47,944 nt of DNA from NCBI GenBank assembly GCA_023130975.1, contig JAGMAD010000003.1:195692-243635 (forward strand), read 5' to 3'. Of the stretch, positions 7,872 to 28,846 are shown one piece after another; the stretch's first letter is position 1, and every line of letters begins with the position of its first letter. Below the pieces are notes generated by a model, which was not told where the DNA came from, searched no databases, and was given only the letters and a program-made list of their open reading frames with translations. Position numbers and translations under genes: made by a program. The DNA is from Candidatus Parcubacteria bacterium (GTDB lineage: Bacteria > Patescibacteriota > Minisyncoccia > Minisyncoccales > JAGMDC01).

Positions 7872-8924
7872 ATGTTTAATAAAATATTCTCTTATTTATC
7901 CCAAGATATTGCTATTGATTTAGGAACAGCTAATTCCTTGGTCTATGTTAGAGGCAAGGGGATTGTTATTTCTGAACCGTCAGTGGTGGCCTTAAACCAG
8001 AAAACTGGTCAAATTTTAGCTATTGGAGAAGAGGCAAAAAAAATGGTGGGTAAAACCCCTGCTTATATTATAGCCAGTAGGCCTTTGGTAAAAGGGGTAA
8101 TTTCTGATTTTGAAGTAACTGAGCAAATGCTCAAATATTTTCTTGAAAAAGTTCGTAAAAGCAAACTGGCTTTTATTAATCAACCCCGAGTAATTGTTGG
8201 TATTCCTTGCGGTGTTACTGAGGTAGAAAGCAAAGCCGTTCAAGATGCCGCTAAGTCAGCCGGGGCAAGAAAGGTTTATTTAATTGAACAGCCAATAGCT
8301 GCAGCTATTGGCGCAAGATTAGCAGTGCAGGAAGCAGGAGGAAATTTTATTGTTGATATTGGCGGCGGAACAACCGAAATAGCGGTAATTTCTTTGGGGG
8401 GAATGGTTATAGCTAAAAGTTTAAGGGTAGCTGGTGACAAACTTAATGAAGATATAATCTATTATGCCCAAGAGGAGTATAAATTACTCATAGGAGAAAG
8501 AACAGCAGAGGAAATTAAAATTGGTATTGGCTCTGCTTATCCTTCAAAAGAAAAAAAAGAAATGCCAATGAGGGGAAGAAATTTAGTTACTGGCTTGCCT
8601 GAAGAAATCACTGTCTCTGATGAAGATATTCGCAGGGCATTGGAAAAATCAGTAAAACAGATTGTGGATGAAATAAAAGCTACCGTAGAAGAAACACCGC
8701 CAGAACTTTTAGCTGATGTTATGTCAAAAGGAATATATCTTGCTGGAGGTGGTTCATTGCTTAGAGATTTAGACACTCTTATCACCAAAGAGACCAAAAT
8801 TCCGGCTAAAATCATTGACGATCCTTTAACAACAGTGGCTCGGGGAGCAGGAATGGTTTTAGAAAAGTTAGACGAACTCCAAGAGGTCTTAATAGAAACA
8901 GAAGAATTACAACCACCGAAATAA
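7872..8924 (+). CDS. mreB: Actin-like rod-shape protein MreB, paralogue 2
   Basis: 350 aa. IAIDLGTANSLVY, DIGGGTTEIAVISLGG and AGGGSLLRDLDTLI motifs. Confidence 0.9.
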   Translation: MFNKIFSYLSQDIAIDLGTANSLVYVRGKGIVISEPSVVALNQKTGQILAIGEEAKKMVGKTPAYIIASRPLVKGVISDFEVTEQMLKYFLEKVRKSKLAFINQPRVIVGIPCGVTEVESKAVQDAAKSAGARKVYLIEQPIAAAIGARLAVQEAGGNFIVDIGGGTTEIAVISLGGMVIAKSLRVAGDKLNEDIIYYAQEEYKLLIGERTAEEIKIGIGSAYPSKEKKEMPMRGRNLVTGLPEEITVSDEDIRRALEKSVKQIVDEIKATVEETPPELLADVMSKGIYLAGGGSLLRDLDTLITKETKIPAKIIDDPLTTVARGAGMVLEKLDELQEVLIETEELQPPK

Positions 8925-18863: not shown

Positions 18864-18894
18864 TCGCCAACCCAATTTTAAAAATTTGTTTTCT

Positions 18895-19416
18895 ATGATT
18901 ATGAGGCCTACTAAAGACCAATATTATCTCAATATTGCCAAGCAAGTAGCTCAAAGGTCAACTTGTTTTCGGGTTAGGTTTGGGGCAATTATTGTTAGAG
19001 ATGACCAGATTATTGCTACTGGCTATGTTGGTGCACCAAGGAAAACTAAGGACTGTTTTGAAAGGGGAAATTGTTTAAGAGACCAATTAAAAATTCCCCA
19101 TGGCCAAAAATACGAGCTTTGCCGAAGCGTTCATAGCGAACAAAACGCTATTATCAATGCTGCTCGAGCTGGAGTAAGTTTGCTTGGCGGGGATATGTTT
19201 ATTTATGCGGAAAATAAAGAGAGAGAAGCAATAGATGCTTTTCCTTGTTTTATTTGTAAAAAGATGATTATTAATGCTGGCTTAAATAGAGCAGTTTGCT
19301 CAACAAGCGATGGTAAATACAAGGTTTTTAATATCCAGGATTGGGTTCGCGATTGGCAGGAAAGAGACATCTTAGATGACCAGCATCAATACGGAAAGGA
19401 CCAGAATAGGGGTTGA
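18895..19416 (+). CDS. comEB: Deoxycytidylate (dCMP) deaminase, ComEB-type
   Basis: CDA zinc motifs HSEQNAI and PCFICKKMIINAG. Size about 170 aa. Start ATG 18895 or 18901. Confidence 0.85.
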   Translation: MIMRPTKDQYYLNIAKQVAQRSTCFRVRFGAIIVRDDQIIATGYVGAPRKTKDCFERGNCLRDQLKIPHGQKYELCRSVHSEQNAIINAARAGVSLLGGDMFIYAENKEREAIDAFPCFICKKMIINAGLNRAVCSTSDGKYKVFNIQDWVRDWQERDILDDQHQYGKDQNRG

Positions 19417-19433
19417 CCCCCCTTTTTGTTTTT
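19409..19433 (+). terminator. Short GC hairpin plus T-run overlapping the comEB stop
   Basis: GGGG-TTGA-CCCC followed by CCTTTTTGTTTTT. Confidence 0.4.
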
Positions 19434-19461
19434 GATACTGTAAAATTACAGCACATAAATA
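19432..19461 (+). promoter_or_regulatory. Possible promoter of the purine-rich operon
   Basis: TTGATA (19432-19437), 18 nt, TAAATA (19456-19461). Weak match. Confidence 0.3.
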
Positions 19462-19487
19462 GTTAAATAATTGAAGAGGGAAAGAAA

Positions 19488-19745
19488 ATGTATGAAGAAG
19501 AAAAAGTATGGGAAGAAATAAAATATTGTATAGAGATAGGAAGACGAAACGATATACAAAGATGTTTGGAGAACAAGCTACAGACAAGAAGGCGGAGAGC
19601 AATAGAAATGAAGAAGGCATTGGACAAAGAATATTTGGAAATAGAGCAAATAGAGGAAGTATTGGAGAAACTACAAGAAGGGGTTGTTGTAAAAAACACA
19701 GAACAAGAGGCAGAGCGAAGAATAGTAGGAGCAATACAGGTGTAA
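19488..19745 (+). CDS. Small charged helical protein (85 aa), operon gene 1
   Basis: SD GAGGGAAAGAAAATG. MYEEEKVWEEIKYCIEIGRRNDIQRCLENKLQTRRRRAIEMKK... No family recognised. Confidence 0.5.
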   Translation: MYEEEKVWEEIKYCIEIGRRNDIQRCLENKLQTRRRRAIEMKKALDKEYLEIEQIEEVLEKLQEGVVVKNTEQEAERRIVGAIQV

Positions 19746-19768
19746 TATAAATAAAAGGAGCAATAGAA

Positions 19769-19972
19769 ATGGGAGAGAAAGAAAAAATAGACGTTGTGAT
19801 AGTTTGGAAGAAAGAAAAACCGGAGAAGAAAGGAGAATCAGAGAATACAGGAATTTCAAAGACAATCAAGGATATTTCAGAAGAGAAACTTAAGAGTCTT
19901 CTAAAAAGCAAGAAGTGCAATGGCTTTCAGGTGGTTTGGAAATGGGAAAAAGCAGGTGAGAAAAATGTCTGA
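19769..19972 (+). CDS. Small Lys/Glu-rich protein (67 aa), operon gene 2
   Basis: SD AAGGAGCAATAGAAATG. Its stop overlaps the next start (ATGTCTGA). Confidence 0.5.
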   Translation: MGEKEKIDVVIVWKKEKPEKKGESENTGISKTIKDISEEKLKSLLKSKKCNGFQVVWKWEKAGEKNV

Positions 19973-20117
19973 AGAAAGAAAGCCATTTGAGTCAGATATA
20001 GAAAGAATTGAAAACAGGAACAAAAAGTGGATGGAAATACAAAAAGAGCCACATGGTAGAACATTAATGAGATTAAAACTGATATTCGGATTCTCAGAGA
20101 GAGAAGAAAAAGAATAA
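19965..20117 (+). CDS. Small protein (50 aa), operon gene 3
   Basis: SD AGGTGAGAAAAATG. MSEERKPFESDIERIENRNKKWMEIQKEPHGRTLMRLKLIFGFSEREEKE. The track ORF from 19920 is an upstream extension without an SD. Confidence 0.45.
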   Translation: MSEERKPFESDIERIENRNKKWMEIQKEPHGRTLMRLKLIFGFSEREEKE

Positions 20118-20134
20118 AAAGGAGGTGATAGAAA

Positions 20135-20875
20135 ATGGAATTAAAAGAATTAGAAAAAAGAGTACGCCTTTTTTTAAAAGGAGAGTATGCAACGGACAAG
20201 ATATACGATCAACTATACAGAATAGCGGTTCTCGATTCTCAGACTGGCGATTTGGCAAAATTTGTCTATCATGACCCGAAATACAATCCAGAAGCTCGAA
20301 TCGTTGGCACTTTCGAAGACGAAGTTTCAATTTCTGGTGAGGCAGTGTGTCATCTAATAGCTCTGATGATGAGCAGGGGAATAGATTTATCCGATGCTCT
20401 GGAAGCAGGAATTAAAAAATTGGAAGAAAAAGATGGGTACAAGAAAAAGGGTGAAGTTATAGAGATAGATAACATAACGACGCTAAAAGGATACCGAACG
20501 GCCTCTGGTATAGTTGAAGGAATAGCAATAGTAATACTGTTCGCCTCAGAAAAAAAGTTAGAGAAGTTGCTAACGAATTTGAAATTGAAAGATGAAAAGA
20601 AAATACTTGTGACAGAAAGTTTAAGCGCCCATTCAGTTTCAGTTGGTTTTTTGAGAGCAATAAATTTAGTAGGAATAGTAACCAATCAGGGAGGGAGTAC
20701 TTCACACGGAGCAATAATAGCCAGAGAGATGGGAATTCCTTGTGTTTCAGGGACAGAAGTTTCAGAAACAGAAAAAGCGACAAAGATAATTCATAGTGGT
20801 GACAAAATTATAGTAAATGGAAACGCAGGAGAAGTAGTTTTAATAAAGAGAGAAGTAATTTTGAGAAAGAGGTGA
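20135..20875 (+). CDS. Fusion protein: MazG-like all-alpha NTP-pyrophosphohydrolase-fold N-domain plus PEP-utilising-enzyme mobile (phosphohistidine swivel) domain
   Basis: SD AAGGAGGTGATAGAAAATG. N-half: LDSQTGDLAKFV...GEAVCHLIALMMSRGIDLSDALEAGIKKLEEK (MazG-like, acidic motif partly substituted). C-half: ILVTESLS...GIVTNQGGSTSHGAIIAREMGIPCVSG...GDKIIVNGNAGEV (PF00391 pattern; His codon at 20705-20707). Confidence 0.75.
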   Translation: MELKELEKRVRLFLKGEYATDKIYDQLYRIAVLDSQTGDLAKFVYHDPKYNPEARIVGTFEDEVSISGEAVCHLIALMMSRGIDLSDALEAGIKKLEEKDGYKKKGEVIEIDNITTLKGYRTASGIVEGIAIVILFASEKKLEKLLTNLKLKDEKKILVTESLSAHSVSVGFLRAINLVGIVTNQGGSTSHGAIIAREMGIPCVSGTEVSETEKATKIIHSGDKIIVNGNAGEVVLIKREVILRKR

Positions 20876-20880
20876 TAGAA

Positions 20881-22197
20881 ATGGTAAAAATAGGTTTTAT
20901 AGAAGATGAGCCGATTATACTCGCAGCAGTTGGAGTAAAAATCTCCCAAACGCCATTTGAACAGGGGAGTATTCAAGATATTTACGAGGAATGTCGGGGA
21001 AGCGAGTTAGAAAAGGAAGCAGGCAAGCTAAAAGAAGCTGGAAATTTTGAAGGAGCTAAAAAATTGAAACAAGAGGTTGAGAGACGCATAGAGAATTCTA
21101 AAAAATTAGTCAATGAGATAATGATAAAGCACAGACATCTAATCCTCGGTGATTTCCTGCCCTACACGGTAGCATTAGAGGATATTTCACGGCTGGCAGC
21201 GATTTATCTCTGGCGAAATGTGAATGTCTTGAACTTCGTATTCGGCGCTGGTATAGAAGCATCATTTAGAGTGATAAAGCCAAACAGATATAACAAAGCA
21301 GTTAGTGACTTAGGTAAAATAGCATTTGAGGCATACGAGAAGGCGGTTGATCTCGGAGTTCCAGAACAAGACGCAAGGTATATGTTGCCAGAAGGAATAC
21401 TAACCAGAATGATATTTTCTAGTACGCCTCGTTATTTAGGGAAACTGGCAAATTCTTCGAAGAATGCACCATTATCAGAATTCAAAGAAATCGGTAAACA
21501 AATTGAGACACTGGTTAAGGAAAAATTTGGCTTAGAACTACTTCAAGAAACATTACCTTCGGAATGGAAATTCTGGGGACAGGAAAAAATAAAAGAAGGA
21601 ATTTCTCTTGACTATCAAGGAAAGATTCATTCTTTTTCCTTGAATATGGGAGTAAAAGGAAGCTTAGCGATGTATGCTCAACTAGTGCGACAGAGATTGT
21701 TACTATGTGATGTAGAACCATTAGAAGGAATAAGCAAAAAAGGAAGATTCGTTGTTCCTTTTACCTTTCCAAGAGCAACAAGAAAAGATTACCAAGAAAT
21801 AGCCAGTCAGGCAAAGCAAAAGCAGATAGAGTCAATAGAAAGACATGAACAGGATTTCGTTTATTACCTTTTACTTGGACAAGAGGCTGAAGCAATAATA
21901 TATGGGAAAGGTGCTACAGTGATTGAAACTTCACAGGCAAGAAGCGAGGGTGTGGCTCAATGGGAAATAAGGAACCAAGTAGGAATTCCAATAACCAGAG
22001 AATTGGCAAAATATAAAGAGCTGGAAACAGAAATTGGTCCCAGATGCTGGAGAGAAAAACAGTGCATAGAACCCGGAACTTTTAAAACAAAGAAGAGTAT
22101 CTGTAAAGCATTTTTTCAAGCAGAGGGAAATTGGAAAGGAACTTTGAAAGAACTACTTGATACCTTAACTGAACATTACGAGACTTTCAGGGTGTAA
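20881..22197 (+). CDS. Tandem double ThyX-like (flavin-dependent thymidylate synthase fold) protein with a divergent signature
   Basis: SD AGAGGTGATAGAAATG (alternative GTG at 20872). First half aligns by eye to T. maritima ThyX (KHRHLILGDFLPYTVALEDISRLAAIYLWRN..., VPEQDARYMLPEGILTRMIFSS). Second half repeats the pattern (SLAMYAQLVRQRLLL..., SQARSEGVAQWEIRNQ). Confidence 0.7.
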   Translation: MVKIGFIEDEPIILAAVGVKISQTPFEQGSIQDIYEECRGSELEKEAGKLKEAGNFEGAKKLKQEVERRIENSKKLVNEIMIKHRHLILGDFLPYTVALEDISRLAAIYLWRNVNVLNFVFGAGIEASFRVIKPNRYNKAVSDLGKIAFEAYEKAVDLGVPEQDARYMLPEGILTRMIFSSTPRYLGKLANSSKNAPLSEFKEIGKQIETLVKEKFGLELLQETLPSEWKFWGQEKIKEGISLDYQGKIHSFSLNMGVKGSLAMYAQLVRQRLLLCDVEPLEGISKKGRFVVPFTFPRATRKDYQEIASQAKQKQIESIERHEQDFVYYLLLGQEAEAIIYGKGATVIETSQARSEGVAQWEIRNQVGIPITRELAKYKELETEIGPRCWREKQCIEPGTFKTKKSICKAFFQAEGNWKGTLKELLDTLTEHYETFRV

Positions 22198-22228
22198 GAG
22201 AGCAAAATATACAAAAATAAAAAAATTC

Positions 22229-22270
22229 ATGGCTTCTGTAATTTTTTCAAAAAAAGAGGCCATTTTTTTA
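22229..22270 (+). terminator. Rho-independent terminator closing the operon
   Basis: ATGGCTTCT...AGAGGCCAT stem (one G-U) with an internal TTTTTT/AAAAAA extension, followed by TTTTTTT. Confidence 0.65.
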
Positions 22271-22377
22271 TCTTTAAAATAGAGACCTTGACTCCTTGCG
22301 TTTTTTTTCTAATTATGTATAATAAAATAACAGTTGTTTTAAATAAAAATAAAAAATAGGGGGTGAGATTAAAAAAA

Positions 22378-22737
22378 ATGGCAACAGAAATCAAGAATCG
22401 GTTTTTATCAGCGATATTACAAATAAAAGAAATTAGAGGGGAGCAAGCAGAGGAAAAAGTTAAGGAGGCACTTAAAGAACTTCAAAAGGAGGGGAAAATC
22501 GAAAATTTCGGCCAGACCATGAAATTTAGCATAGAGGATCTAACCGGTATAGATTTTATCATTTTTTGGAAAGCTAAGAAAAAAATATTACTTCAAGTCA
22601 AAGGATATCCCTTTGAAAACAAAAGAAAATATCGAAAAAGGAATATTCAAGTGATTATGGCCTTGCCGGAAGAAAATGTATCAGAGGTAAAAAGAAAAAT
22701 TTTTGCTATCATAGAAAGAAAAACAAAAAGAAAATAA
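22378..22737 (+). CDS. Small basic hypothetical protein (119 aa from ATG 22378)
   Basis: AGGGGGTGA SD region upstream. E...D(GIDFIIF)...LLQVK arrangement faintly reminiscent of PD-(D/E)xK nucleases. Lys/Arg-rich tail. Confidence 0.55.
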   Translation: MATEIKNRFLSAILQIKEIRGEQAEEKVKEALKELQKEGKIENFGQTMKFSIEDLTGIDFIIFWKAKKKILLQVKGYPFENKRKYRKRNIQVIMALPEENVSEVKRKIFAIIERKTKRK

Positions 22738-22814: not shown

Positions 22815-23354
22815 ATGATATTAGGGGTGAAAGAATTACTAAAATTAGTAAAGGAGAGAAAGATAGTAGAAAATCTTTCAGAAAGAGAACTCAAGAATCC
22901 AGAAGGAGCAGGTTTTGATTTTCGGCTCGGAGAGATTTATGAAATTTCTGGAAAAGGATTTTTAGGCATAGACGAAAGAGAGACGCCAAAAACAAAGCTA
23001 TTAGCAAAATATGAGCCAAAAAAGAAACAAAATTTTATTTTTGAACCGGGTAAATACTACTTAATGAAAACAATAGAAGAAGTGAATTTACCGGAAAATA
23101 TTTTATGTCTTCTGCGACAAAGATCAACTTTGCATAGGTCGGGAATAATGATTTTTACTGGCAATGTTTCACCAGGATATCAAGGTGTCTTAACCTTTGG
23201 GATTGTGAATTTAGGTCCTTGTGATATAAAAATTGAACTTGGCGCAAGAGTAGTTCATGCTATGTTCCATGAAGTAAAAGGAGAAACCAATTTGTACCGA
23301 GGCCAGTGGCAGGGCGGCCGGGTCTCAACTGGTAAAAAAGAAAAACAAATTTAA
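22815..23354 (+). CDS. dcd: dCTP deaminase / dUTPase-superfamily protein (Dcd-like)
   Basis: 179 aa. GAGFDFRLG..., LRQRSTLHRSGI, SPGYQGVLTFGIVNLG patterns of the trimeric dUTPase/Dcd fold. Confidence 0.75.
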   Translation: MILGVKELLKLVKERKIVENLSERELKNPEGAGFDFRLGEIYEISGKGFLGIDERETPKTKLLAKYEPKKKQNFIFEPGKYYLMKTIEEVNLPENILCLLRQRSTLHRSGIMIFTGNVSPGYQGVLTFGIVNLGPCDIKIELGARVVHAMFHEVKGETNLYRGQWQGGRVSTGKKEKQI

Positions 23355-23356
23355 TT

Positions 23357-24052
23357 ATGAAAAATATTGCTAAATTTACCCGCCATAATTTTTCTTTTGA
23401 AAATTTAGGCGGGTTAATTGACCATACTAATATTAAGAAAGAAGCTACTGCTAAAGATATTAAAAAAACCTGTGAAGAGGCAAAGAAATATAATTTTCGG
23501 AGTGTTTGCATAAATCCAGAATGGGTGAGATTAGTTAAAAAAGAGTTAAGCGGAACAGACATAAAAAAGGTAGTTTTAATTGATCCACCAATGGGCTTGA
23601 GTTCTTCTCAAAAACGATTGAAAATGTGTCAGAAAGCAAAAAGAGATGGCGCAGATGAATTAGATGTAGTAATGAATATTATTGGCTTAAAATATGAGAG
23701 GTATGATAATGTCTTAAACGACCTAAAAGGAATTTGTAAAATTTTGCCAACAAAAGTGATTATTGGAAGTGGCTATTTAACTGATGATGAAATAAAAATT
23801 GCTTCTCAATTAGTTAAAAGAGCTGGAGCAATTTGTGTCAAAACGGCAACTTTTAAAGATCCGTTAGAAAATAGAGAATTAGAAGAAAAAGCGAGACATC
23901 TTAAAATTATGCGAAAGGCAGCTCCTGGACTCTTAATAAAAGCAGCTGGCAAAATAAAATGTCTCAATGATTTGAAAATAATGGTCAAAGCCGGCGCTGA
24001 TATAATTGGAACCAGCTCAGGAGTTTCAATAATAAAAGAAGCCAAAAAATGA
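23357..24052 (+). CDS. deoC: Deoxyribose-phosphate aldolase
   Basis: 231 aa. [37 protein letters not shown] and CVKTATF (Schiff-base Lys region) match the DeoC pattern. Confidence 0.82.
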
Positions 24053-24056
24053 TTTT

Positions 24057-24986
24057 ATGAGTTATTTTCCAACCGTCGGCCTCGAGATCCATGCCGAATT
24101 AAAAACAAAATCAAAAATGTTTTGCTCTTGTGTCAATAACCCGGATGAAAAACAACCAAATGTTAATGTTTGCCCTGTTTGTTTATCGCATCCAGGGACC
24201 TTGCCGGTGATAAATAGAGATGCAGTGAGAAAAGTAATTAAAACTGGCTTGGCTTTAAATTGTCAAATTCCTCAATATTCTAAATTTGATAGAAAAAACT
24301 ACTTCTATCCCGATCTACCTAAAGGGTATCAAATCTCTCAACTTTATATGCCGTTTTGTGAAAATGGATTTTTAGAAATTAATTGCAGTCCCGAAGGAGA
24401 ACAAGTTCCCTACGGGACAGGCAGGAAAATCAGAATAAGAGAAATTCATTTAGAAGAAGATACAGGAAAATTAATTCACCCAGAAGGAGCCGATTATAGT
24501 TTAGTGGATTTTAATCGGGCAGGTGTTCCTCTAATGGAATTGGTTACTGAGCCGAATATTCATTCAGCAAAAGAAGCGAGGAAATTTGCTGAAGAATTCC
24601 AATTAATTTTAAGATATCTTGATGTTTCTTATGCCAATATGGAAAAGGGACAATTACGCATTGAAGTGAATATTTCACTTCAATGCAAATCCAAAATCCA
24701 AATGCCAAAATCCAAATCAAATCCAAAATCCAAAATCCAAAATCCAAAACTGGGAACTAAAGTAGAAATTAAAAACTTGAATTCTTTTCGAGCAGTGGAA
24801 AAGGGGATTGACTATGAAATTGAAAGGCAATCGGAAATTTTAGAAAAAGGAGAAAAAATTGTTCAGGAAACGCGGGGTTGGCATGATACAAAACAAATTA
24901 CCATAAGCCAGAGAGAAAAAGAGGAAGCTCATGATTATAGATATTTTCCAGAACCAGACCTGCCGATGCTTCACATTGGAAGTTGA
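24057..24986 (+). CDS. gatB: Asp/Glu-tRNA amidotransferase subunit B, N-terminal (catalytic cradle) segment of a split gene
   Basis: [25 protein letters not shown]...[13 protein letters not shown]...[11 protein letters not shown], then stop TGA at 24984-24986. Confidence 0.85.
24686..24750 (+). repeat. AATCCAAA octamer-type tandem repeat inside gatB
   Basis: CAAATCCAAAATCCAAATGCCAAAATCCAAATCAAATCCAAAATCCAAAATCCAAAATCCAAAAC, translated as [21 protein letters not shown]. Confidence 0.85.
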
Positions 24987-24990
24987 AACT

Positions 24991-25653
24991 ATGAATATCA
25001 ATATTAATAAAATTAAATCAGAGATTTCTGAACTACCTCAAGCCAAAAGAAAGAGGTTTAAGGCAGAGTATAATTTATCAGATAAAGAGATAGAAGTTTT
25101 TGTTCAAAATAAAAATCTTGGAGAATATTTTGAAAAAGTAATGTCAGAATTAAGAAACTGGGTAAAAGAAGCAGAGATAAAGAGAGAAGTTGAAAGAGAT
25201 GAATTTTTAAAATTAGCAAAATTTTGCACTAGTTATCTAATTACTGATCTTCAGGGATTATTAAAAGGTGGTGATGTTGCCCCCCACCACTTTTTTGAAA
25301 AAAGTGGTGGGGGGTTGATCACCCCAGAAAACTTTGCTGAATTTATCACTTTAGTTTATAAAAAAGAAATTTCCTCAAAAATCGCTAAAATAGTTTTAAG
25401 CGAAATGTTTAAAACCAGTGCTGACCCGTCGCACATTATTAAAGAAAAGGCATTGAGCCAGGTAACCGATGAATTAGAAATTGAGAAAGTTATAAAGAAC
25501 ATAATTTCAAAAAATCCCAAACCAGTTGAAGATTATAAAAAAGGAAAACAAAACGCTTTACAATTTTTAGTAGGCCAGGTAATGGCAGCTACCAGAGGCA
25601 AAGCCAAACCAGATATAGTTAACAACATTCTAAAAAGAGTTCTTTCAAAATAA
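24991..25653 (+). CDS. gatB: Asp/Glu-tRNA amidotransferase subunit B, C-terminal (helical plus YqeY-like tail) segment
   Basis: ELPQAKRKRFKAEYNLSDKEIEVF...GEYFEKV...ISSKIAKIVLSEM...ALQFLVGQVMAATRGKAKP. In the +1 frame relative to the N-segment. This frame is open from 24931. Confidence 0.82.
   Translation: MNININKIKSEISELPQAKRKRFKAEYNLSDKEIEVFVQNKNLGEYFEKVMSELRNWVKEAEIKREVERDEFLKLAKFCTSYLITDLQGLLKGGDVAPHHFFEKSGGGLITPENFAEFITLVYKKEISSKIAKIVLSEMFKTSADPSHIIKEKALSQVTDELEIEKVIKNIISKNPKPVEDYKKGKQNALQFLVGQVMAATRGKAKPDIVNNILKRVLSK
25280..25314 (+). repeat. Perfect 17+1+17 nt palindrome inside the gatB C-segment
   Basis: CCCCCCACCACTTTTTT-G-AAAAAAGTGGTGGGGGG, translated within GGDVAPHHFFEKSGGGL. Confidence 0.9.
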
Positions 25654-27477: not shown

Positions 27478-28689
27478 TTATTTACACACTCCCTTATAAT
27501 CAATTTCTACTTCCGCTAAATTGGCAAAACAGGTATTACTATAAGTTTTTCCATCCTTTCCACAAACTGGGTTCCATAAAGTAATACAAGCCTGGGGTTT
27601 TGTTAGTTTTTGAGGGATTTGAATCTCTGACGGAATTACACATTTAAAAGAAACAATACAACCGTTTTCGTCTCTTTCTAAAAGAATTCTTCCGTTGCCG
27701 CAAAAGCCGAGAGGTGGTTTTTCAATGTCAATTTCGGGACAATTTCTGTCTATTTCTTCAATTTTTTCTAAGATATTTTCTCTTACTTCCATTATTTTTT
27801 GCCTCAGGACAGGTTTTTCTTGTAATTCTGATTTTAGATTTTCCAAAATTTCAAGATGTATTTCTTTTTCTCCGGAAATTTTGTCAATATATTCCTTGAA
27901 TCTTTCTTGATTCTCTGGAGACATTTTTTCTAAATCGCCTTGCAATCTTTTGAGCGAATTTTCTTGAGCTTTTCTAATTGCTTCTTTTGCCTGTTCAGGC
28001 ACCTTTTCTTCCAGCTTTAGTAAAACTTCTAAATTCTTAAAGTTCTTATATTTACTTCCTTTTATTTCTGCCATATTTTTCTCTAATCGTTCAGAAATGT
28101 TATCTTCTCTATCTTCTAATTTTGTCATAACCTCACCAAATCTTTCAAGGTGTCTCTCTCGGGCTTGTTCTATTTTTTCAAATACTTCAGTCGGAACCTG
28201 AGTTTGTAATTTTTCAAGAATTCTATAATGAAGAGTTTGATGTTTAATAAACTTATCTAAAAAAGCACCAACTTTTGGATTTGCTTCTGCCTTTTCTTTT
28301 ATTTTTTCAGATGCCTCCTTAATTTTATCCATTTCATTTTGATAATTTTCTAAGCTATTTTCTATAATATCTGGATCTTTTACTTCTTCAATCATCTTTT
28401 TTACTTCAATTAATCTTTCGTTAGCAAATTTTGATTTCAATTCGGCTTTTTTGATTGGATTAAAAGCAAAGAAAGACCGAATTCCTCTGCCCCAATCTTT
28501 TAAGAAATAAAAAGGACTATCCGGTAATAAAGTTGGTTCTTCAATATCCAGATCTTCTGCCTGAATATTCTCATCAAGATTTACTGCTTCAGTTGCATTT
28601 TCTTGTGCTAAACTTACTGAAGCAAACCCTAATCCCAGACAAAGAGCGATTAAGATTAGGCATATAAAAGATTTGGTTGAGTAAAACAT
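27478..28689 (-). CDS. Secreted/anchored DUF5667-like coiled-coil protein with a C-terminal Kazal-like domain
   Basis: Signal/anchor MFYSTKSFICLILIALCLGLGFASVSLAQ. LPDSPFYFLKDWGRGI (DUF5667-like). C-terminus ACITLWNPVCGKDGKTYSNTCFANLAEVEIDYKGVC (Kazal pattern). Start set at ATG 28689. Confidence 0.8.
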   Translation of the reverse strand: MFYSTKSFICLILIALCLGLGFASVSLAQENATEAVNLDENIQAEDLDIEEPTLLPDSPFYFLKDWGRGIRSFFAFNPIKKAELKSKFANERLIEVKKMIEEVKDPDIIENSLENYQNEMDKIKEASEKIKEKAEANPKVGAFLDKFIKHQTLHYRILEKLQTQVPTEVFEKIEQARERHLERFGEVMTKLEDREDNISERLEKNMAEIKGSKYKNFKNLEVLLKLEEKVPEQAKEAIRKAQENSLKRLQGDLEKMSPENQERFKEYIDKISGEKEIHLEILENLKSELQEKPVLRQKIMEVRENILEKIEEIDRNCPEIDIEKPPLGFCGNGRILLERDENGCIVSFKCVIPSEIQIPQKLTKPQACITLWNPVCGKDGKTYSNTCFANLAEVEIDYKGVCK

Positions 28690-28846
28690 CTTTTTTAAAT
28701 CCCAAGCACCAAGCACCAAATTCCAAATGAGCACCAATTTTCAAAATTCAAATGATTAAAATTTATTTAGAGTTTTAGAAATTGGGATTTGGGATTTGTT
28801 TGGGATTTGGGATTTGTAATTTGGAATTTACACTGTGAAGTAGTGT
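28690..28846. repeat. Word-repeat palindromic spacer (AAATCCCAA/CCAAATTCCAAAT versus TTGGGATTT/ATTTGGAATTT)
   Basis: Directly visible inverted word blocks on either side of about 28760. Confidence 0.7.

What the first reader, a model, noticed from the sequence alone, without database searches (positions are those of the whole stretch)
19440..22270. Purine-rich five-gene operon (3 micro-ORFs, a MazG-like::PEP-swivel fusion and a tandem ThyX-like protein): candidate undescribed pyrimidine-nucleotide system
Five tightly packed same-strand ORFs sit between the comEB hairpin/T-run and a strong terminator (22229-22270). They are 19488-19745, 19769-19972, 19965-20117 (ATGTCTGA stop/start overlap), 20135-20875 and 20881-22197 (5-nt gap).

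- Every ORF has a near-consensus SD, and two share the context GGTGATAGAAA(A)ATGG. Most housekeeping genes in this window have weak or no SD.
- By eye the coding strand is strikingly A+G-rich and T-poor (AGA/GAA/ATA/GGA codons). The antisense frame is stop-free for 182 codons as a result. This suggests a different evolutionary origin from the surrounding genes.
- The two large products combine three folds I do not know to act together: an all-alpha NTP pyrophosphohydrolase, a phosphohistidine swivel domain and a flavin-dependent thymidylate-synthase fold.
- The flanking genes are all pyrimidine deoxynucleotide enzymes (dCMP deaminase, dCTP deaminase, DeoC).

Hypothesis (inference): a nucleotide-processing machine that makes, modifies or depletes a dU/dT-type nucleotide, with phosphoryl or pyrophosphoryl transfer through the swivel His.
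Basis: partly seen in the sequence, partly recalled or inferred. Interest (0 to 1): 0.85.

Follow-up and report, generated by a model that had tools for sequence, protein, structure and literature searches.

The report
Phosphohistidine MazG-like partner of thymidylate synthase
In this small-genome bacterium the thymidylate synthase gene is coupled to an uncharacterised two-domain gene (a nucleotide-pyrophosphatase-like fold plus a phosphohistidine "swivel" domain) whose relatives sit beside thymidylate synthases of unrelated types, or are fused to thymidine kinase, in many other reduced-genome microbes, which points to an undescribed step in making the DNA base T.

Summary
The ORFs, the ATGTCTGA overlap, the strong Shine-Dalgarno sites and the flanking pyrimidine genes are real. 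The "purine-rich five-gene operon of foreign origin" is only partly real. Extreme purine bias (71-75%) is limited to the three micro-ORFs; D and E (61-63%) match their neighbours.

- **E** belongs to a well-conserved (45-75% identity), domain-duplicated ThyX-type family in Patescibacteria and DPANN. In the three more distant loci examined it lacks D and sits with SHMT, FolD, Tmk and Dcd. It is probably the housekeeping thymidylate synthase.
- **Micro-ORFs** B and C are a clade-specific small-gene pair. A varies (0, 24 or 85 codons). All three are absent from one close relative.
- **D** is the interesting part. It joins a divergent MazG-like four-helix domain, not covered by Pfam or NCBIfam, to a PEP-utilizer swivel domain with an invariant His.
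- In 82 non-redundant loci, relatives of D lie next to ThyX of at least four architectures, ThyA, Tmk, Dcd or formiminotransferase. One is fused to thymidine kinase.

My best reading is that D is a covalent-His (pyro)phosphoryl-transfer enzyme acting on pyrimidine deoxynucleotides at the dTMP node. Its substrates and direction are unresolved.

The parts
18886..19416 (+). dCMP deaminase (ComEB-like), the upstream flank. It supplies dUMP.
   Evidence: Pfam dCMP_cyt_deam_1 at 6.9e-18 and TIGR02571 at 1.7e-19. It is syntenic in L001-L003, L016 and L042.
19408..19424 (+). Terminator-like hairpin plus T-run at the end of comEB.
   Evidence: Consensus scan. The same hairpin is kept in L002.
19488..19745 (+). 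Micro-ORF A (85 codons, 75% purine). A doubtful or rapidly expanding gene.
   Evidence: Only its first ~22 residues are conserved, as a 24-codon ORF in L042. It is absent from L002 and L001. It has no convincing family hit (only sub-threshold matches, best E 0.003-0.05). A second ORF overlaps it in another frame.
19769..19972 (+). Micro-ORF B (67 aa). A small protein conserved within the clade, function unknown.
   Evidence: 38% identity to L002:5202-5366 (E = 1e-10). tblastn hits in L002, L003 and L042. 6-nt SD.
19965..20117 (+). Micro-ORF C (50 aa), overlapping B's stop (ATGTCTGA). A shortened copy of a 66-aa protein in relatives.
   Evidence: The overlap and the MSEE(R/K)xP start are kept in L002 and L042. 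The relatives' 66-aa versions are alike. The window copy keeps only the ends.
20135..20455 (+). D, N-terminal domain (residues 1-107). A divergent MazG-like four-helix domain with the family motif THDPxLNPxARPxG.
   Evidence: The family profile hits YpjD 2gta (E = 3e-4) and 5ie9 (E = 8e-4) over their full length. AF2 gives pLDDT 89.5. Foldseek matches 2gta at probability 1.0 and TM 0.61, and phage NTP-PPases at TM up to 0.70. No Pfam hit at E <= 10. Invariant residues: R29, H46, P52, R55, G68.
20456..20875 (+). D, C-terminal PEP-utilizer phosphohistidine swivel domain. His191 is the codon CAC at 20705-20707.
   Evidence: PF00391 at 1.2e-18. Foldseek matches rifampin phosphotransferase and PPDK central domains at 5e-8. 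GGxTSH His is invariant in 33 family members.
20881..22197 (+). E, a domain-duplicated ThyX-type (Thy1) protein. Probable flavin-dependent thymidylate synthase.
   Evidence: PF02511 at 6.7e-17 with 2 stretches. Two repeats map to residues 113-226 and 294-407. More than 130 homologues at 45-75% identity. Its context elsewhere includes SHMT, FolD, Tmk and Dcd.
20998..21090 (+). Lineage-specific K/E-rich, purine-rich insertion inside E (residues ~40-70).
   Evidence: Absent from all other family members aligned.
22229..22270 (+). Terminator-like hairpin (9-bp stem, 17-nt loop) plus T-run after E.
   Evidence: RNA fold gives -14.9 kcal/mol with z = -2.3. The consensus scan did not call it.
22815..23354 (+). 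dCTP deaminase / dUTPase-family gene, in the downstream flank.
   Evidence: PF22769 at 3.4e-23. TIGR02274 scores 90.4 bits, just under its cutoff of 92.8.
23357..24052 (+). Deoxyribose-phosphate aldolase (DeoC).
   Evidence: TIGR00126 at 1e-47, above its cutoff.

Best explanation
The functional unit is a two-gene module, D-E, inside a housekeeping pyrimidine-deoxynucleotide cluster (comEB ... D-E ... dcd-deoC).

**E** is the organism's thymidylate synthase. It is a domain-duplicated ThyX-type enzyme that makes dTMP from the dUMP supplied by ComEB and Dcd.

**D** is an accessory enzyme of the dTMP node. Three steps are proposed.
1. Its MazG-like domain binds a pyrimidine deoxynucleotide. The classical acidic metal ligands are largely replaced by invariant Arg/His residues.
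2. The swivel domain carries a phosphoryl or pyrophosphoryl group on His191, as in the first partial reaction of PPDK and PEP synthase.
3. No ATP-grasp or PEP-binding domain accompanies D. The simplest self-contained mechanism is therefore ping-pong transfer at one nucleotide site: (d)NTP + His gives (d)NMP or (d)NDP plus His~PP or His~P, and the group then passes to a second nucleotide such as dTMP or dTDP, or to water.

**Shown:** the domain folds, the invariant His, and the gene linkage to dTMP-forming enzymes.
**Inferred:** catalysis through His, the substrates and the direction.

The micro-ORFs are not part of this module.
For: **Architecture**
- PF00391 swivel with invariant His191, and a MazG-like N-domain.
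- The family is real and widespread. About 30 full-length two-domain proteins appear in the top 150 of an exhaustive profile search. There are 94 genes in 82 non-redundant loci from CPR, DPANN and phage-like contigs.

**Linkage to dTMP-forming enzymes, whatever their type**
- E-type tandem ThyX: window, L001, L002.
- 287-aa single-domain ThyX: L042, whose D is 71% identical to the window's.
- ThyA-like: L046 (D 64% identical), L016, L025, L089, L104, L108, L109 and a JGI contig.
- 473-554-aa tandem ThyX: L010, L028, L029, L040, L044, L103.
- A thymidylate synthase is adjacent in 14 and within 3 genes in 18 of the 82 loci.
- Rosetta stone: L051 encodes thymidine kinase (PF00265, 2e-36) fused in frame to D.
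- Tmk is adjacent in L027, L028 and L054. Dcd, comEB, DeoC, HD-domain and formiminotransferase genes recur.

**Other support**
- D and E are 5 nt apart, and both have strong SD sites in a genome that mostly lacks them.
- No ATP-grasp or PEP-binding partner is encoded in the neighbourhoods inspected.
Against: - There is no biochemical evidence of any kind.
- The canonical MazG EExxE...ExxD metal ligands are not kept (S35-Q36-x-x-D39; I66...E69). Nucleotide binding is therefore itself an inference from the fold.
- Swivel domains can be non-catalytic, as in the extra C-terminal domain of Geobacillus pyruvate kinase (2e28, which also appears).
- In DPANN archaea D is not next to a thymidylate synthase. 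It lies next to an unknown 282-aa protein (c1), Sua5 and zinc-ribbon genes.
- Tmk, a Dcd/Dut-family gene and an AAA_18 kinase coexist with D in some loci (L027, L010, L049). D is therefore not a simple replacement for any one of them.
- That E is catalytically a thymidylate synthase is inferred from context. It scores below the TIGR02170 cutoff and lacks the canonical RHR...S motif.
Confidence: 0.5

Rival explanations
1. D is simply a MazG-type dUTP/dCTP pyrophosphohydrolase that feeds dUMP to the thymidylate synthase. This would parallel T4 gp56 feeding gp42 and td, or MazZ feeding PurZ. The swivel domain would be regulatory or structural, not a covalent carrier.
For: - The N-domain has the MazG/NTP-PPase fold.
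- Dcd, which makes dUTP, is a frequent neighbour (WIN, L010, L046, L059, L103).
- D-ThyA pairs occur on phage-like contigs.
- The D-less relative L007 carries NUDIX and CYTH genes in the same cluster.
Against: - The canonical acidic metal ligands are lost, while Arg/His residues are invariant.
- The swivel His and its TSH context are invariant across members only 30% identical, which argues for catalysis.
- A fusion to thymidine kinase and adjacency to Tmk point to the product side (dTMP) rather than only to dUMP supply.
Confidence: 0.2
2. D is a phosphocarrier or regulator charged in trans. His191 would be phosphorylated by a separate PEP- or ATP-dependent enzyme (PPDK, PEP synthase or an EI-like protein). 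D would then phosphorylate a nucleotide (a PEP-driven dTMP or dTDP kinase) or modulate the thymidylate synthase.
For: - All characterised swivel domains work with separate donor and acceptor domains.
- D carries only the swivel domain.
- Whole-chain Foldseek matches to the N-terminal domain of Enzyme I, which has a helical subdomain plus a swivel, are weak (TM 0.26-0.28).
Against: - No PPDK_N, PEP-utilizers_C or PTS gene recurs near D in 82 loci.
- The N-domain is a nucleotide-enzyme fold, not an HPr- or protein-binding fold.
- The high AF2 pTM (0.80) suggests a fixed two-domain unit.
Confidence: 0.12
3. One reading: all five genes form one machine that makes, modifies or depletes an unusual dU/dT-type nucleotide, for example a hypermodified base or nucleotide depletion for defence.
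For: - The five genes are tightly packed with strong SD sites.
- D-ThyA pairs on phage-like contigs could serve base modification there.
Against: - A, B and C are absent from L001. In L002 and L042 T-rich spacers (about 430 nt, no long ORF) separate them from D.
- E's family sits with SHMT, FolD and Tmk as a housekeeping enzyme.
- There are no meaningful PADLOC defence hits (only a weak Cas11f match to ORF A, E 0.003).
- The cluster lies in a conserved NusG-L11...GatB core region.
Confidence: 0.05
4. Micro-ORFs A, B and C are not genes. They would be chance open frames in a T-poor, purine-rich spacer.
For: - A T-poor sequence has few stop codons. Overlapping ORFs occur in two frames and on the antisense strand.
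- There are no convincing family hits.
- A varies from 0 to 85 codons among relatives.
Against: - B is conserved at the protein level in three lineages (E = 1e-10).
- The B/C ATGTCTGA junction and C's termini are conserved. The 66-aa C versions of L002 and L042 are alike.
- B and C have 6-nt SD sites.
Confidence: 0.25

Closest known systems
Flavin-dependent thymidylate synthase ThyX (Pfam Thy1, e.g. T. maritima TM0449), including the uncharacterised domain-duplicated form noted in Chloroflexi (PMC3224940)
   Same: - E matches Thy1 above the gathering score.
- It aligns to T. maritima ThyX over the region holding the dUMP-binding arginines (DARY and PPRY).
- It has two Thy1-type repeats.
- Its relatives sit with dCMP deaminase, SHMT, FolD and Tmk.
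   Different: - The canonical RHR(x7-8)S signature is absent. Domain 1 reads WRNVN and domain 2 reads RQR.
- It scores 31 bits against a TIGR02170 cutoff of 87.9.
- The family has three invariant and one near-invariant Cys near the C-terminus.
- The window copy carries a 31-residue K/E-rich stretch (net +27 aa).
- Activity is untested.
Central phosphohistidine swivel domain of PPDK, PEP synthase and rifampin phosphotransferase
   Same: The C-terminal half of D has the same fold and the same GGxTSH catalytic-His context. Those enzymes cleave ATP between the alpha and beta phosphates and carry the beta phosphate, or the pyrophosphate, on His.
   Different: D lacks both the ATP-grasp nucleotide domain and the PEP or substrate domain. 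A ~105-aa MazG-like helical domain takes their place. The whole protein is 210-250 aa instead of 800-900.
All-alpha NTP pyrophosphohydrolases (MazG, YpjD, dimeric dUTPase, phage MazG/MazZ)
   Same: D has the four-helix fold, matched by profile and by structure. There is biological precedent for such enzymes supplying dNMP substrates to ThyA- or PurZ-type enzymes (from my own knowledge of phage T4 and Z-genome phages).
   Different: - The EExxE...ExxD metal-binding motifs are not conserved.
- The family-specific loop THDPxLNPxARPxG and the invariant residues R29, R55 and R81 have no MazG counterpart.
- There is no Pfam MazG hit.
- The domain is always fused to a swivel domain.
Nucleoside diphosphate kinase (analogy only)
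   Same: It is a ping-pong phosphoryl-transfer enzyme that works between nucleotides through a phosphohistidine at a single nucleotide site. This is the mechanism class proposed for D.
   Different: There is no sequence or fold relationship. The analogy is inference only.

Membership tests
ThyX / Thy1 (PF02511) | Significant match to the Thy1 profile | tested here: met
   62.3 bits against a cutoff of 24.8, with two stretches. Two repeats at residues 113-226 and 294-407.
ThyX / Thy1 (PF02511) | ThyX signature motif RHR(x7-8)S | tested here: not met
   Read from the family alignment and sequences. Domain 1 reads W-R-N-V-N. Domain 2 reads R270-Q-R272 with no following Ser. The motif definition comes from my own knowledge.
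ThyX / Thy1 (PF02511) | Equivalog-level score (TIGR02170 thyX) | tested here: not met
   31.1 bits against a cutoff of 87.9.
ThyX / Thy1 (PF02511) | dUMP-binding arginines (T. maritima R147 and R174) | tested here: met
   The profile alignment to 1o26-type chains places DARY (R166) and PPRY (R184) on ARIVLP and NARSL. R184 is invariant and R166 nearly invariant in the family. The residue roles come from my own knowledge.
ThyX / Thy1 (PF02511) | FAD- and CH2-THF-dependent dUMP methylation | not testable with these tools
   Only context supports it. SHMT, FolD, Tmk, ComEB and Dcd lie next to family members.
PEP-utilizer swivel domain (PF00391) | Profile match and fold | tested here: met
   66.9 bits against a cutoff of 23.1. 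Foldseek matches 5hv2 and 1vbg at 5e-8.
PEP-utilizer swivel domain (PF00391) | Catalytic His in the T-S-H context | tested here: met
   His191 is invariant in 33 members. It aligns to the TSH of PEP synthase.
PEP synthase / PPDK / rifampin phosphotransferase (full enzymes) | ATP-grasp (PPDK_N) and PEP/substrate domains in the same protein | tested here: not met
   D matches these models only over its ~100-130 swivel-domain residues. Scores are 30-56 bits against cutoffs of 460-1700.
MazG-like all-alpha NTP pyrophosphohydrolase | Four-helix NTP-PPase fold | tested here: met
   The profile matches 2gta at E = 3e-4 over its full length. Foldseek gives probability 1.0 with TM 0.61 to 2gta and up to 0.70 to phage NTP-PPases.
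MazG-like all-alpha NTP pyrophosphohydrolase | EExxE...ExxD acidic metal-binding motifs | tested here: not met
   In the alignment to YpjD, EELGE corresponds to S-Q-x-G-D and EEEIGD to x-x-I-x-G-(E/Q/H).
MazG-like all-alpha NTP pyrophosphohydrolase | Match to the Pfam MazG family models | tested here: not met
   None of 29 N-domains hit any nucleotide-enzyme family at E <= 10.
MazG-like all-alpha NTP pyrophosphohydrolase | NTP to NMP + PPi activity | not testable with these tools
   This needs an enzyme assay.

The most novel reading that the evidence does not exclude
D is a nucleotide pyrophosphotransferase. His191 takes the beta,gamma-pyrophosphate from dUTP (made by Dcd) or from ATP at the MazG-like site and hands it to dTMP, the product of ThyX, ThyA or TK. 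The reaction would be dUTP + dTMP -> dUMP + dTTP. Together with the thymidylate synthase this closes a cycle that turns dCTP into dTTP without Dut, Tmk, Ndk or extra ATP. That would suit energy-poor CPR and DPANN cells and their phages.
Probability: 0.1. Interest if true: 0.9.

Novelty: new variant of a known kind. Interest (0 to 1): 0.62.

Why it matters
CPR bacteria and DPANN archaea make up a large part of microbial diversity and depend on salvage and minimal pathways. How they balance dUTP, dUMP, dTMP and dTTP is poorly known.

A conserved, unannotated enzyme stays beside the thymidylate synthase gene even when that gene is replaced by a non-homologous type, and it can be fused to thymidine kinase. 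That pattern suggests a missing step, or an alternative step, in thymidylate metabolism.

D would also be the first phosphohistidine-swivel enzyme that uses a MazG-type nucleotide domain as its partner. It is small (~25 kDa) and directly testable in vitro.

The finding also adds a diverged, domain-duplicated ThyX family whose catalytic competence has not been tested.

Tried and rejected
- **Foreign origin of D and E:** rejected. GC, GC3 and purine content match the neighbours, and synteny is conserved.
- **Defence system:** rejected. PADLOC gives no hit for D or E.
- **Non-coding RNA in the purine-rich stretch:** Rfam finds nothing but tRNAs elsewhere in the window.
- **D as a PEP-synthase fragment or pseudogene:** rejected. 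D belongs to a family of full-length 210-250-aa proteins with its own conserved N-domain.
- **D as a replacement for Tmk, Dcd/Dut or the AAA_18/DNMK-like kinase:** each coexists with D somewhere (L027, L010, L049). A simple one-for-one displacement is not supported.
- **First AF2 run on 7 sequences:** poor (pLDDT 56). The 33-sequence alignment was needed.
- **The search for related loci with the 33-sequence alignment:** failed for lack of a conserved stretch. I replaced it with a back-translated motif pattern.
- **hhalign of the two halves of E:** no direct similarity between them. The duplication shows only through a ThyX-seeded profile.
- **c1 (the DPANN neighbour), c11 and the L046 ThyA-like protein:** no Pfam, NCBIfam or PDB sequence hits.
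- **Cultured-phage GenBank:** it holds only swivel-domain kinases, with no full D.
- **Literature searches:** nothing on this architecture.

Full report
**1. What is in the sequence**

The window is a low-GC (34%) stretch of housekeeping genes. These include MurA-like EPSP-fold, MreB x2, RRF, PheS/T, GyrB, NusG, L11, GatB, RNase III and TrmD. Close homologues of its proteins come from Patescibacteria (Parcubacteria, Nealsonbacteria) metagenome bins.

The five ORFs exist at the stated coordinates.
- The ATGTCTGA overlap of B and C, the 5-nt D-E gap and the shared GGTGATAGAAA(A)ATGG context are all read directly from the sequence.
- I counted matches to AAGGAGGTGAT upstream of 45 ORFs. B, C, D and E have 6, 6, 11 and 8 nt. 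Only two other genes reach 6 or more.
- The purine claim holds only for 19.44-20.13 kb. A, B and C are 71-75% purine, the maximum in the window. D and E (63% and 61%) are like dcd, deoC, L11 and NusG (60-61%).
- GC and GC3 of D and E are ordinary.
- In such T-poor DNA, stop-free frames are expected. A second 80-codon ORF overlaps A, and the antisense strand is open for 182 codons.
- The downstream 'terminator' is a 9-bp stem with a 17-nt loop and a T-run (-14.9 kcal/mol, z = -2.3). It is plausible but modest.

**2. E is a conserved, domain-duplicated ThyX-type protein**

E matches Pfam Thy1 (6.7e-17, two stretches). It falls far below the TIGR02170 equivalog cutoff (31 against 87.9 bits).

It has more than 130 homologues of ~410 aa at 45-75% identity in Patescibacteria, Aenigmarchaeota and Omnitrophica bins. 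Many are auto-named 'FAD-dependent thymidylate synthase'.

A family profile aligns to T. maritima ThyX only over the segment holding the two dUMP-binding arginines (DARY and PPRY; E = 1e-6). A search seeded with a single-domain ThyX finds two repeats in E, at residues 113-226 and 294-407, on the same profile region. Direct hhalign of the two halves finds nothing.

The canonical RHR...S motif is not kept. The family has three invariant and one near-invariant Cys near the C-terminus.

In more distant relatives E lacks D and sits with other thymidylate-pathway genes.
- One locus reads dCMP deaminase, AAA_18 kinase, Dcd, SHMT, E, Tmk, CYTH, NUDIX, DeoC (L007).
- Another reads comEB, E, SHMT, FolD (L004).
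- An archaeal locus pairs E with an AAA_18 kinase (L006).

This is the context of a housekeeping thymidylate synthase. A duplicated, uncharacterised ThyX form has been mentioned before (PMC3224940). I therefore treat E as a probable but unproven thymidylate synthase of a known kind.

**3. The micro-ORFs**

None of A, B or C has a convincing family hit; the only matches are sub-threshold (best E 0.003-0.05 for A).
- B is conserved in L002, L003 and L042. Identity is 35-39%, with E = 1e-10 for the pairwise comparison.
- The B/C ATGTCTGA junction is conserved, and the 66-aa C versions of L002 and L042 resemble each other. The window's C keeps only the two ends.
- A is 85 codons here, 24 in L042 and absent in L002.
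- L001, whose D and E are about 70% identical to the window's, has only an 88-nt spacer and no micro-ORFs.
- In L002 and L042 about 430 nt separate C from D, containing T-rich stretches and no long ORF.

B and C are therefore a real but clade-specific small-gene pair of unknown function. A is doubtful. None of the three belongs to the conserved D-E module.

This lineage also carries purine-rich coding insertions inside E (residues ~40-70) and D (EVSET).

**4. D is a distinct, widespread, undescribed family**

Residues 154-232 of D are a PEP-utilizer swivel domain with the GGxTSH histidine. The first ~105 residues hit nothing in Pfam or NCBIfam.

An exhaustive profile search of 1.8 billion representative proteins found about 30 full-length two-domain proteins of 207-255 aa among the top 150 hits. 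In a 33-sequence alignment the invariant residues are R29, H46, P52, R55, G68, G119, G186 and H191. D47, N51, E63 and R81 are nearly invariant, and the family motif is THDPxLNPxARPxG.

The fold of the N-domain is supported in three ways.
- A profile of the N-domain matches B. subtilis YpjD (2gta, a MazG-like pyrophosphatase) at E = 3e-4 and 5ie9 at 8e-4, both full length.
- With the deeper alignment AlphaFold gives pLDDT 89.5 and pTM 0.80. The model has four helices followed by the swivel domain.
- Foldseek matches the swivel domain to rifampin phosphotransferase and PPDK (5e-8). It matches the N-domain to 2gta (probability 1.0, TM 0.61) and to many phage MazG/NTP-PPase models (TM up to 0.70).

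The MazG metal ligands are not kept, however. EExGE becomes S-Q-x-G-D, and the ExxD motif is lost.

Database names for family members are only 'hypothetical' or 'phosphohistidine swiveling domain-containing protein'. Seven literature searches found nothing on this architecture.

**5. Genomic linkage of D**

I back-translated the N-domain motif into a DNA pattern and scanned three collections: species-representative genomes (37 loci), metagenomes (61 loci) and IMG/VR (1 locus). In total 94 D-family genes were confirmed with a family HMM, giving 82 non-redundant loci.

Named hosts are DPANN archaea (Nano-, Woese- and Aenigmarchaeota) and CPR bacteria (Saccharibacteria, Paceibacteria, Nealson-, Yanofsky-, Wildermuth-, Kerfeld- and Falkowbacteria). 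A few other bins also appear.

I labelled neighbours by clustering plus Pfam and NCBIfam. The neighbours of D include the following.
- E-type tandem ThyX: window, L001, L002.
- A 287-aa single-domain ThyX: L042.
- Tandem ThyX of 473-554 aa: L010, L028, L029, L040, L044, L103.
- ThyA (PF00303): L016, L025, L089, L104.
- A ThyA-like 255-aa protein: L046. This call is weak (E = 1e-5 to the L025 ThyA, with PPC and RSRD motifs).

Counts over the 82 loci are as follows.

| Neighbour | Adjacent to D | Within 3 genes |
|---|---|---|
| Any thymidylate synthase | 14 | 18 |
| Any deoxynucleotide or folate gene | not counted | 27 |
| c1 (unknown 282-aa protein) | 12 | 24 |

For a single-copy gene in genomes of roughly a thousand genes, the thymidylate synthase figures are far above chance. 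They are also independent of the synthase type.

Among D proteins 64-71% identical to the window's, the gene after D is E-type ThyX, single-domain ThyX or ThyA-like. The synthase has therefore been displaced in place while D stayed.

Three further look-ups found D overlapping or within three genes of ThyA. Those contigs are full of short unannotated genes, with invertase, methylase and unknown PHROG hits, so they are phage-like.

Other recurrent neighbours are Tmk (L027, L028, L054), a Dcd/Dut-family gene, comEB, DeoC, HD-domain proteins and formiminotransferase.

One ORF, L051:50-1366, is thymidine kinase (PF00265, 2e-36, residues 23-204) fused in frame to D (residues 222-435). The related L030 has a TK/dNK gene, then D, then formiminotransferase. 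Another group fuses a ~160-200-aa domain to D. By eye this domain resembles a nucleoside 2-deoxyribosyltransferase, but it has no Pfam hit. An unknown 401-aa protein follows it.

In DPANN archaea D lies next to an unknown ~282-aa protein (c1), Sua5 or zinc-ribbon genes. That context does not bear on the hypothesis.

**6. Mechanism**

Three things are shown: a nucleotide-enzyme fold, an invariant carrier His, and conserved linkage to enzymes whose common product is dTMP (ThyX, ThyA, TK) or that act just before or after it (Dcd, ComEB, Tmk).

The rest is inferred. D has no ATP-grasp or PEP-binding partner, and none recurs nearby. The MazG-like domain is therefore the likely nucleotide site for the swivel His. 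MazG enzymes and the PPDK/PEP-synthase first half-reaction cleave the same alpha-beta bond. A ping-pong (pyro)phosphoryl transfer between nucleotides is thus chemically natural.

I cannot decide between three options:
- supply of dUMP from dUTP or dCTP, with or without capture of the pyrophosphate;
- phosphorylation of dTMP or dTDP;
- both at once, which is the novel case: dUTP + dTMP -> dUMP + dTTP.

The TK fusion and Tmk adjacency favour the product side. Dcd adjacency and the phage D-ThyA pairs favour the substrate side. The plain-hydrolase and trans-charged carrier models remain live rivals.

**7. Verdict**

- The 'five-gene machine' dissolves into a clade-specific micro-ORF pair, a probable housekeeping thymidylate synthase, and D.
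- D is a new architecture built from two known folds. It forms a sizeable uncharacterised family in CPR, DPANN and phage-like contigs, and it has an unusually informative gene-neighbourhood signal.
- I rate it a new variant of a known kind, of moderate-to-high interest.

Noticed in passing
window 20998-21090 (E residues ~40-70); 20756-20770 (D residues 208-212); 19560-19745 (ORF A beyond residue ~24): This lineage carries K/E-rich, purine-rich coding insertions that relatives lack. E has a 31-residue K/E-rich stretch where relatives have 4 residues (net +27 aa). D has a 5-aa EVSET insertion. ORF A is extended from 24 to 85 codons. Together they suggest a local purine-rich expansion process.
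   Followed up: partly
window 20881-22197 (E residues C276, C389, C395, C408): The E family has three invariant and one near-invariant cysteine (GPRCWRExxCIEPxTFKTKKxxC). This may be a metal or Fe-S site, and I do not know of one in characterised ThyX.
   Followed up: no
window 24057-24986 and 24931-25653: gatB is split into two overlapping ORFs (GatB_N and the GatB/Yqey part). It is also split in L002 but is a single gene in L007, L040 and L046. The first ORF contains a low-complexity KSK/IQ repeat.
   Followed up: no
window 22363-22737: A 124-aa ORF lies between E and dcd. It has only weak hits (MCM4 winged helix, NERD). Relatives carry different small ORFs at this position, for example an 80-aa ORF in L001.
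   Followed up: no
L051:50-1366; L030:565-3957: In L051 thymidine kinase is fused in frame to a D-family protein. The related L030 has a TK/dNK fusion gene, then D, then formiminotransferase.
   Followed up: yes
L047, L069, L080, L088, L091, L105 (e.g. L091:342-1499 and L091:1519-2724): A subgroup of D proteins carries an extra ~160-200-aa N-terminal domain (MWKIYLCG...ADLVxAN). By eye it resembles a nucleoside 2-deoxyribosyltransferase, but it has no Pfam hit. An unknown 401-aa protein (c11) always follows it, and HD-domain and Tmk genes lie nearby.
   Followed up: partly
L015:5383-6231 and 23 other loci: An unknown ~282-aa protein (c1) has no Pfam, NCBIfam or PDB sequence hit. It is the commonest neighbour of D in DPANN archaea and is often divergently transcribed.
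   Followed up: partly
L108:4252-5690; L109:2257-3717; JGI 3300075153 contig (no DNA); L110 (IMG/VR UViG, same contig as L096): D-family genes lie next to ThyA on contigs dense with short unannotated genes, with invertase, Dam methylase and PHROG hits. These look like phages or mobile elements of uncultured hosts.
   Followed up: partly
L085:2-1243 (- strand): One ORF joins a D N-domain to a calcineurin-like metallophosphoesterase. It may be a real fusion or an assembly chimera.
   Followed up: no
window 2004-3011 and 7872-8924; 27478-28737 (-): There are two MreB paralogues within 6 kb of each other. A DUF5667 protein with a C-terminal Kazal protease-inhibitor domain is conserved next to the MiaB-like gene in relatives.
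   Followed up: no
L007:2649-3200; L006:6276-6854; L049: An AAA_18 P-loop kinase resembling deoxynucleotide monophosphate kinase accompanies E-type ThyX in D-less loci of a CPR bacterium and a DPANN archaeon. In L049 it also occurs together with D.
   Followed up: partly
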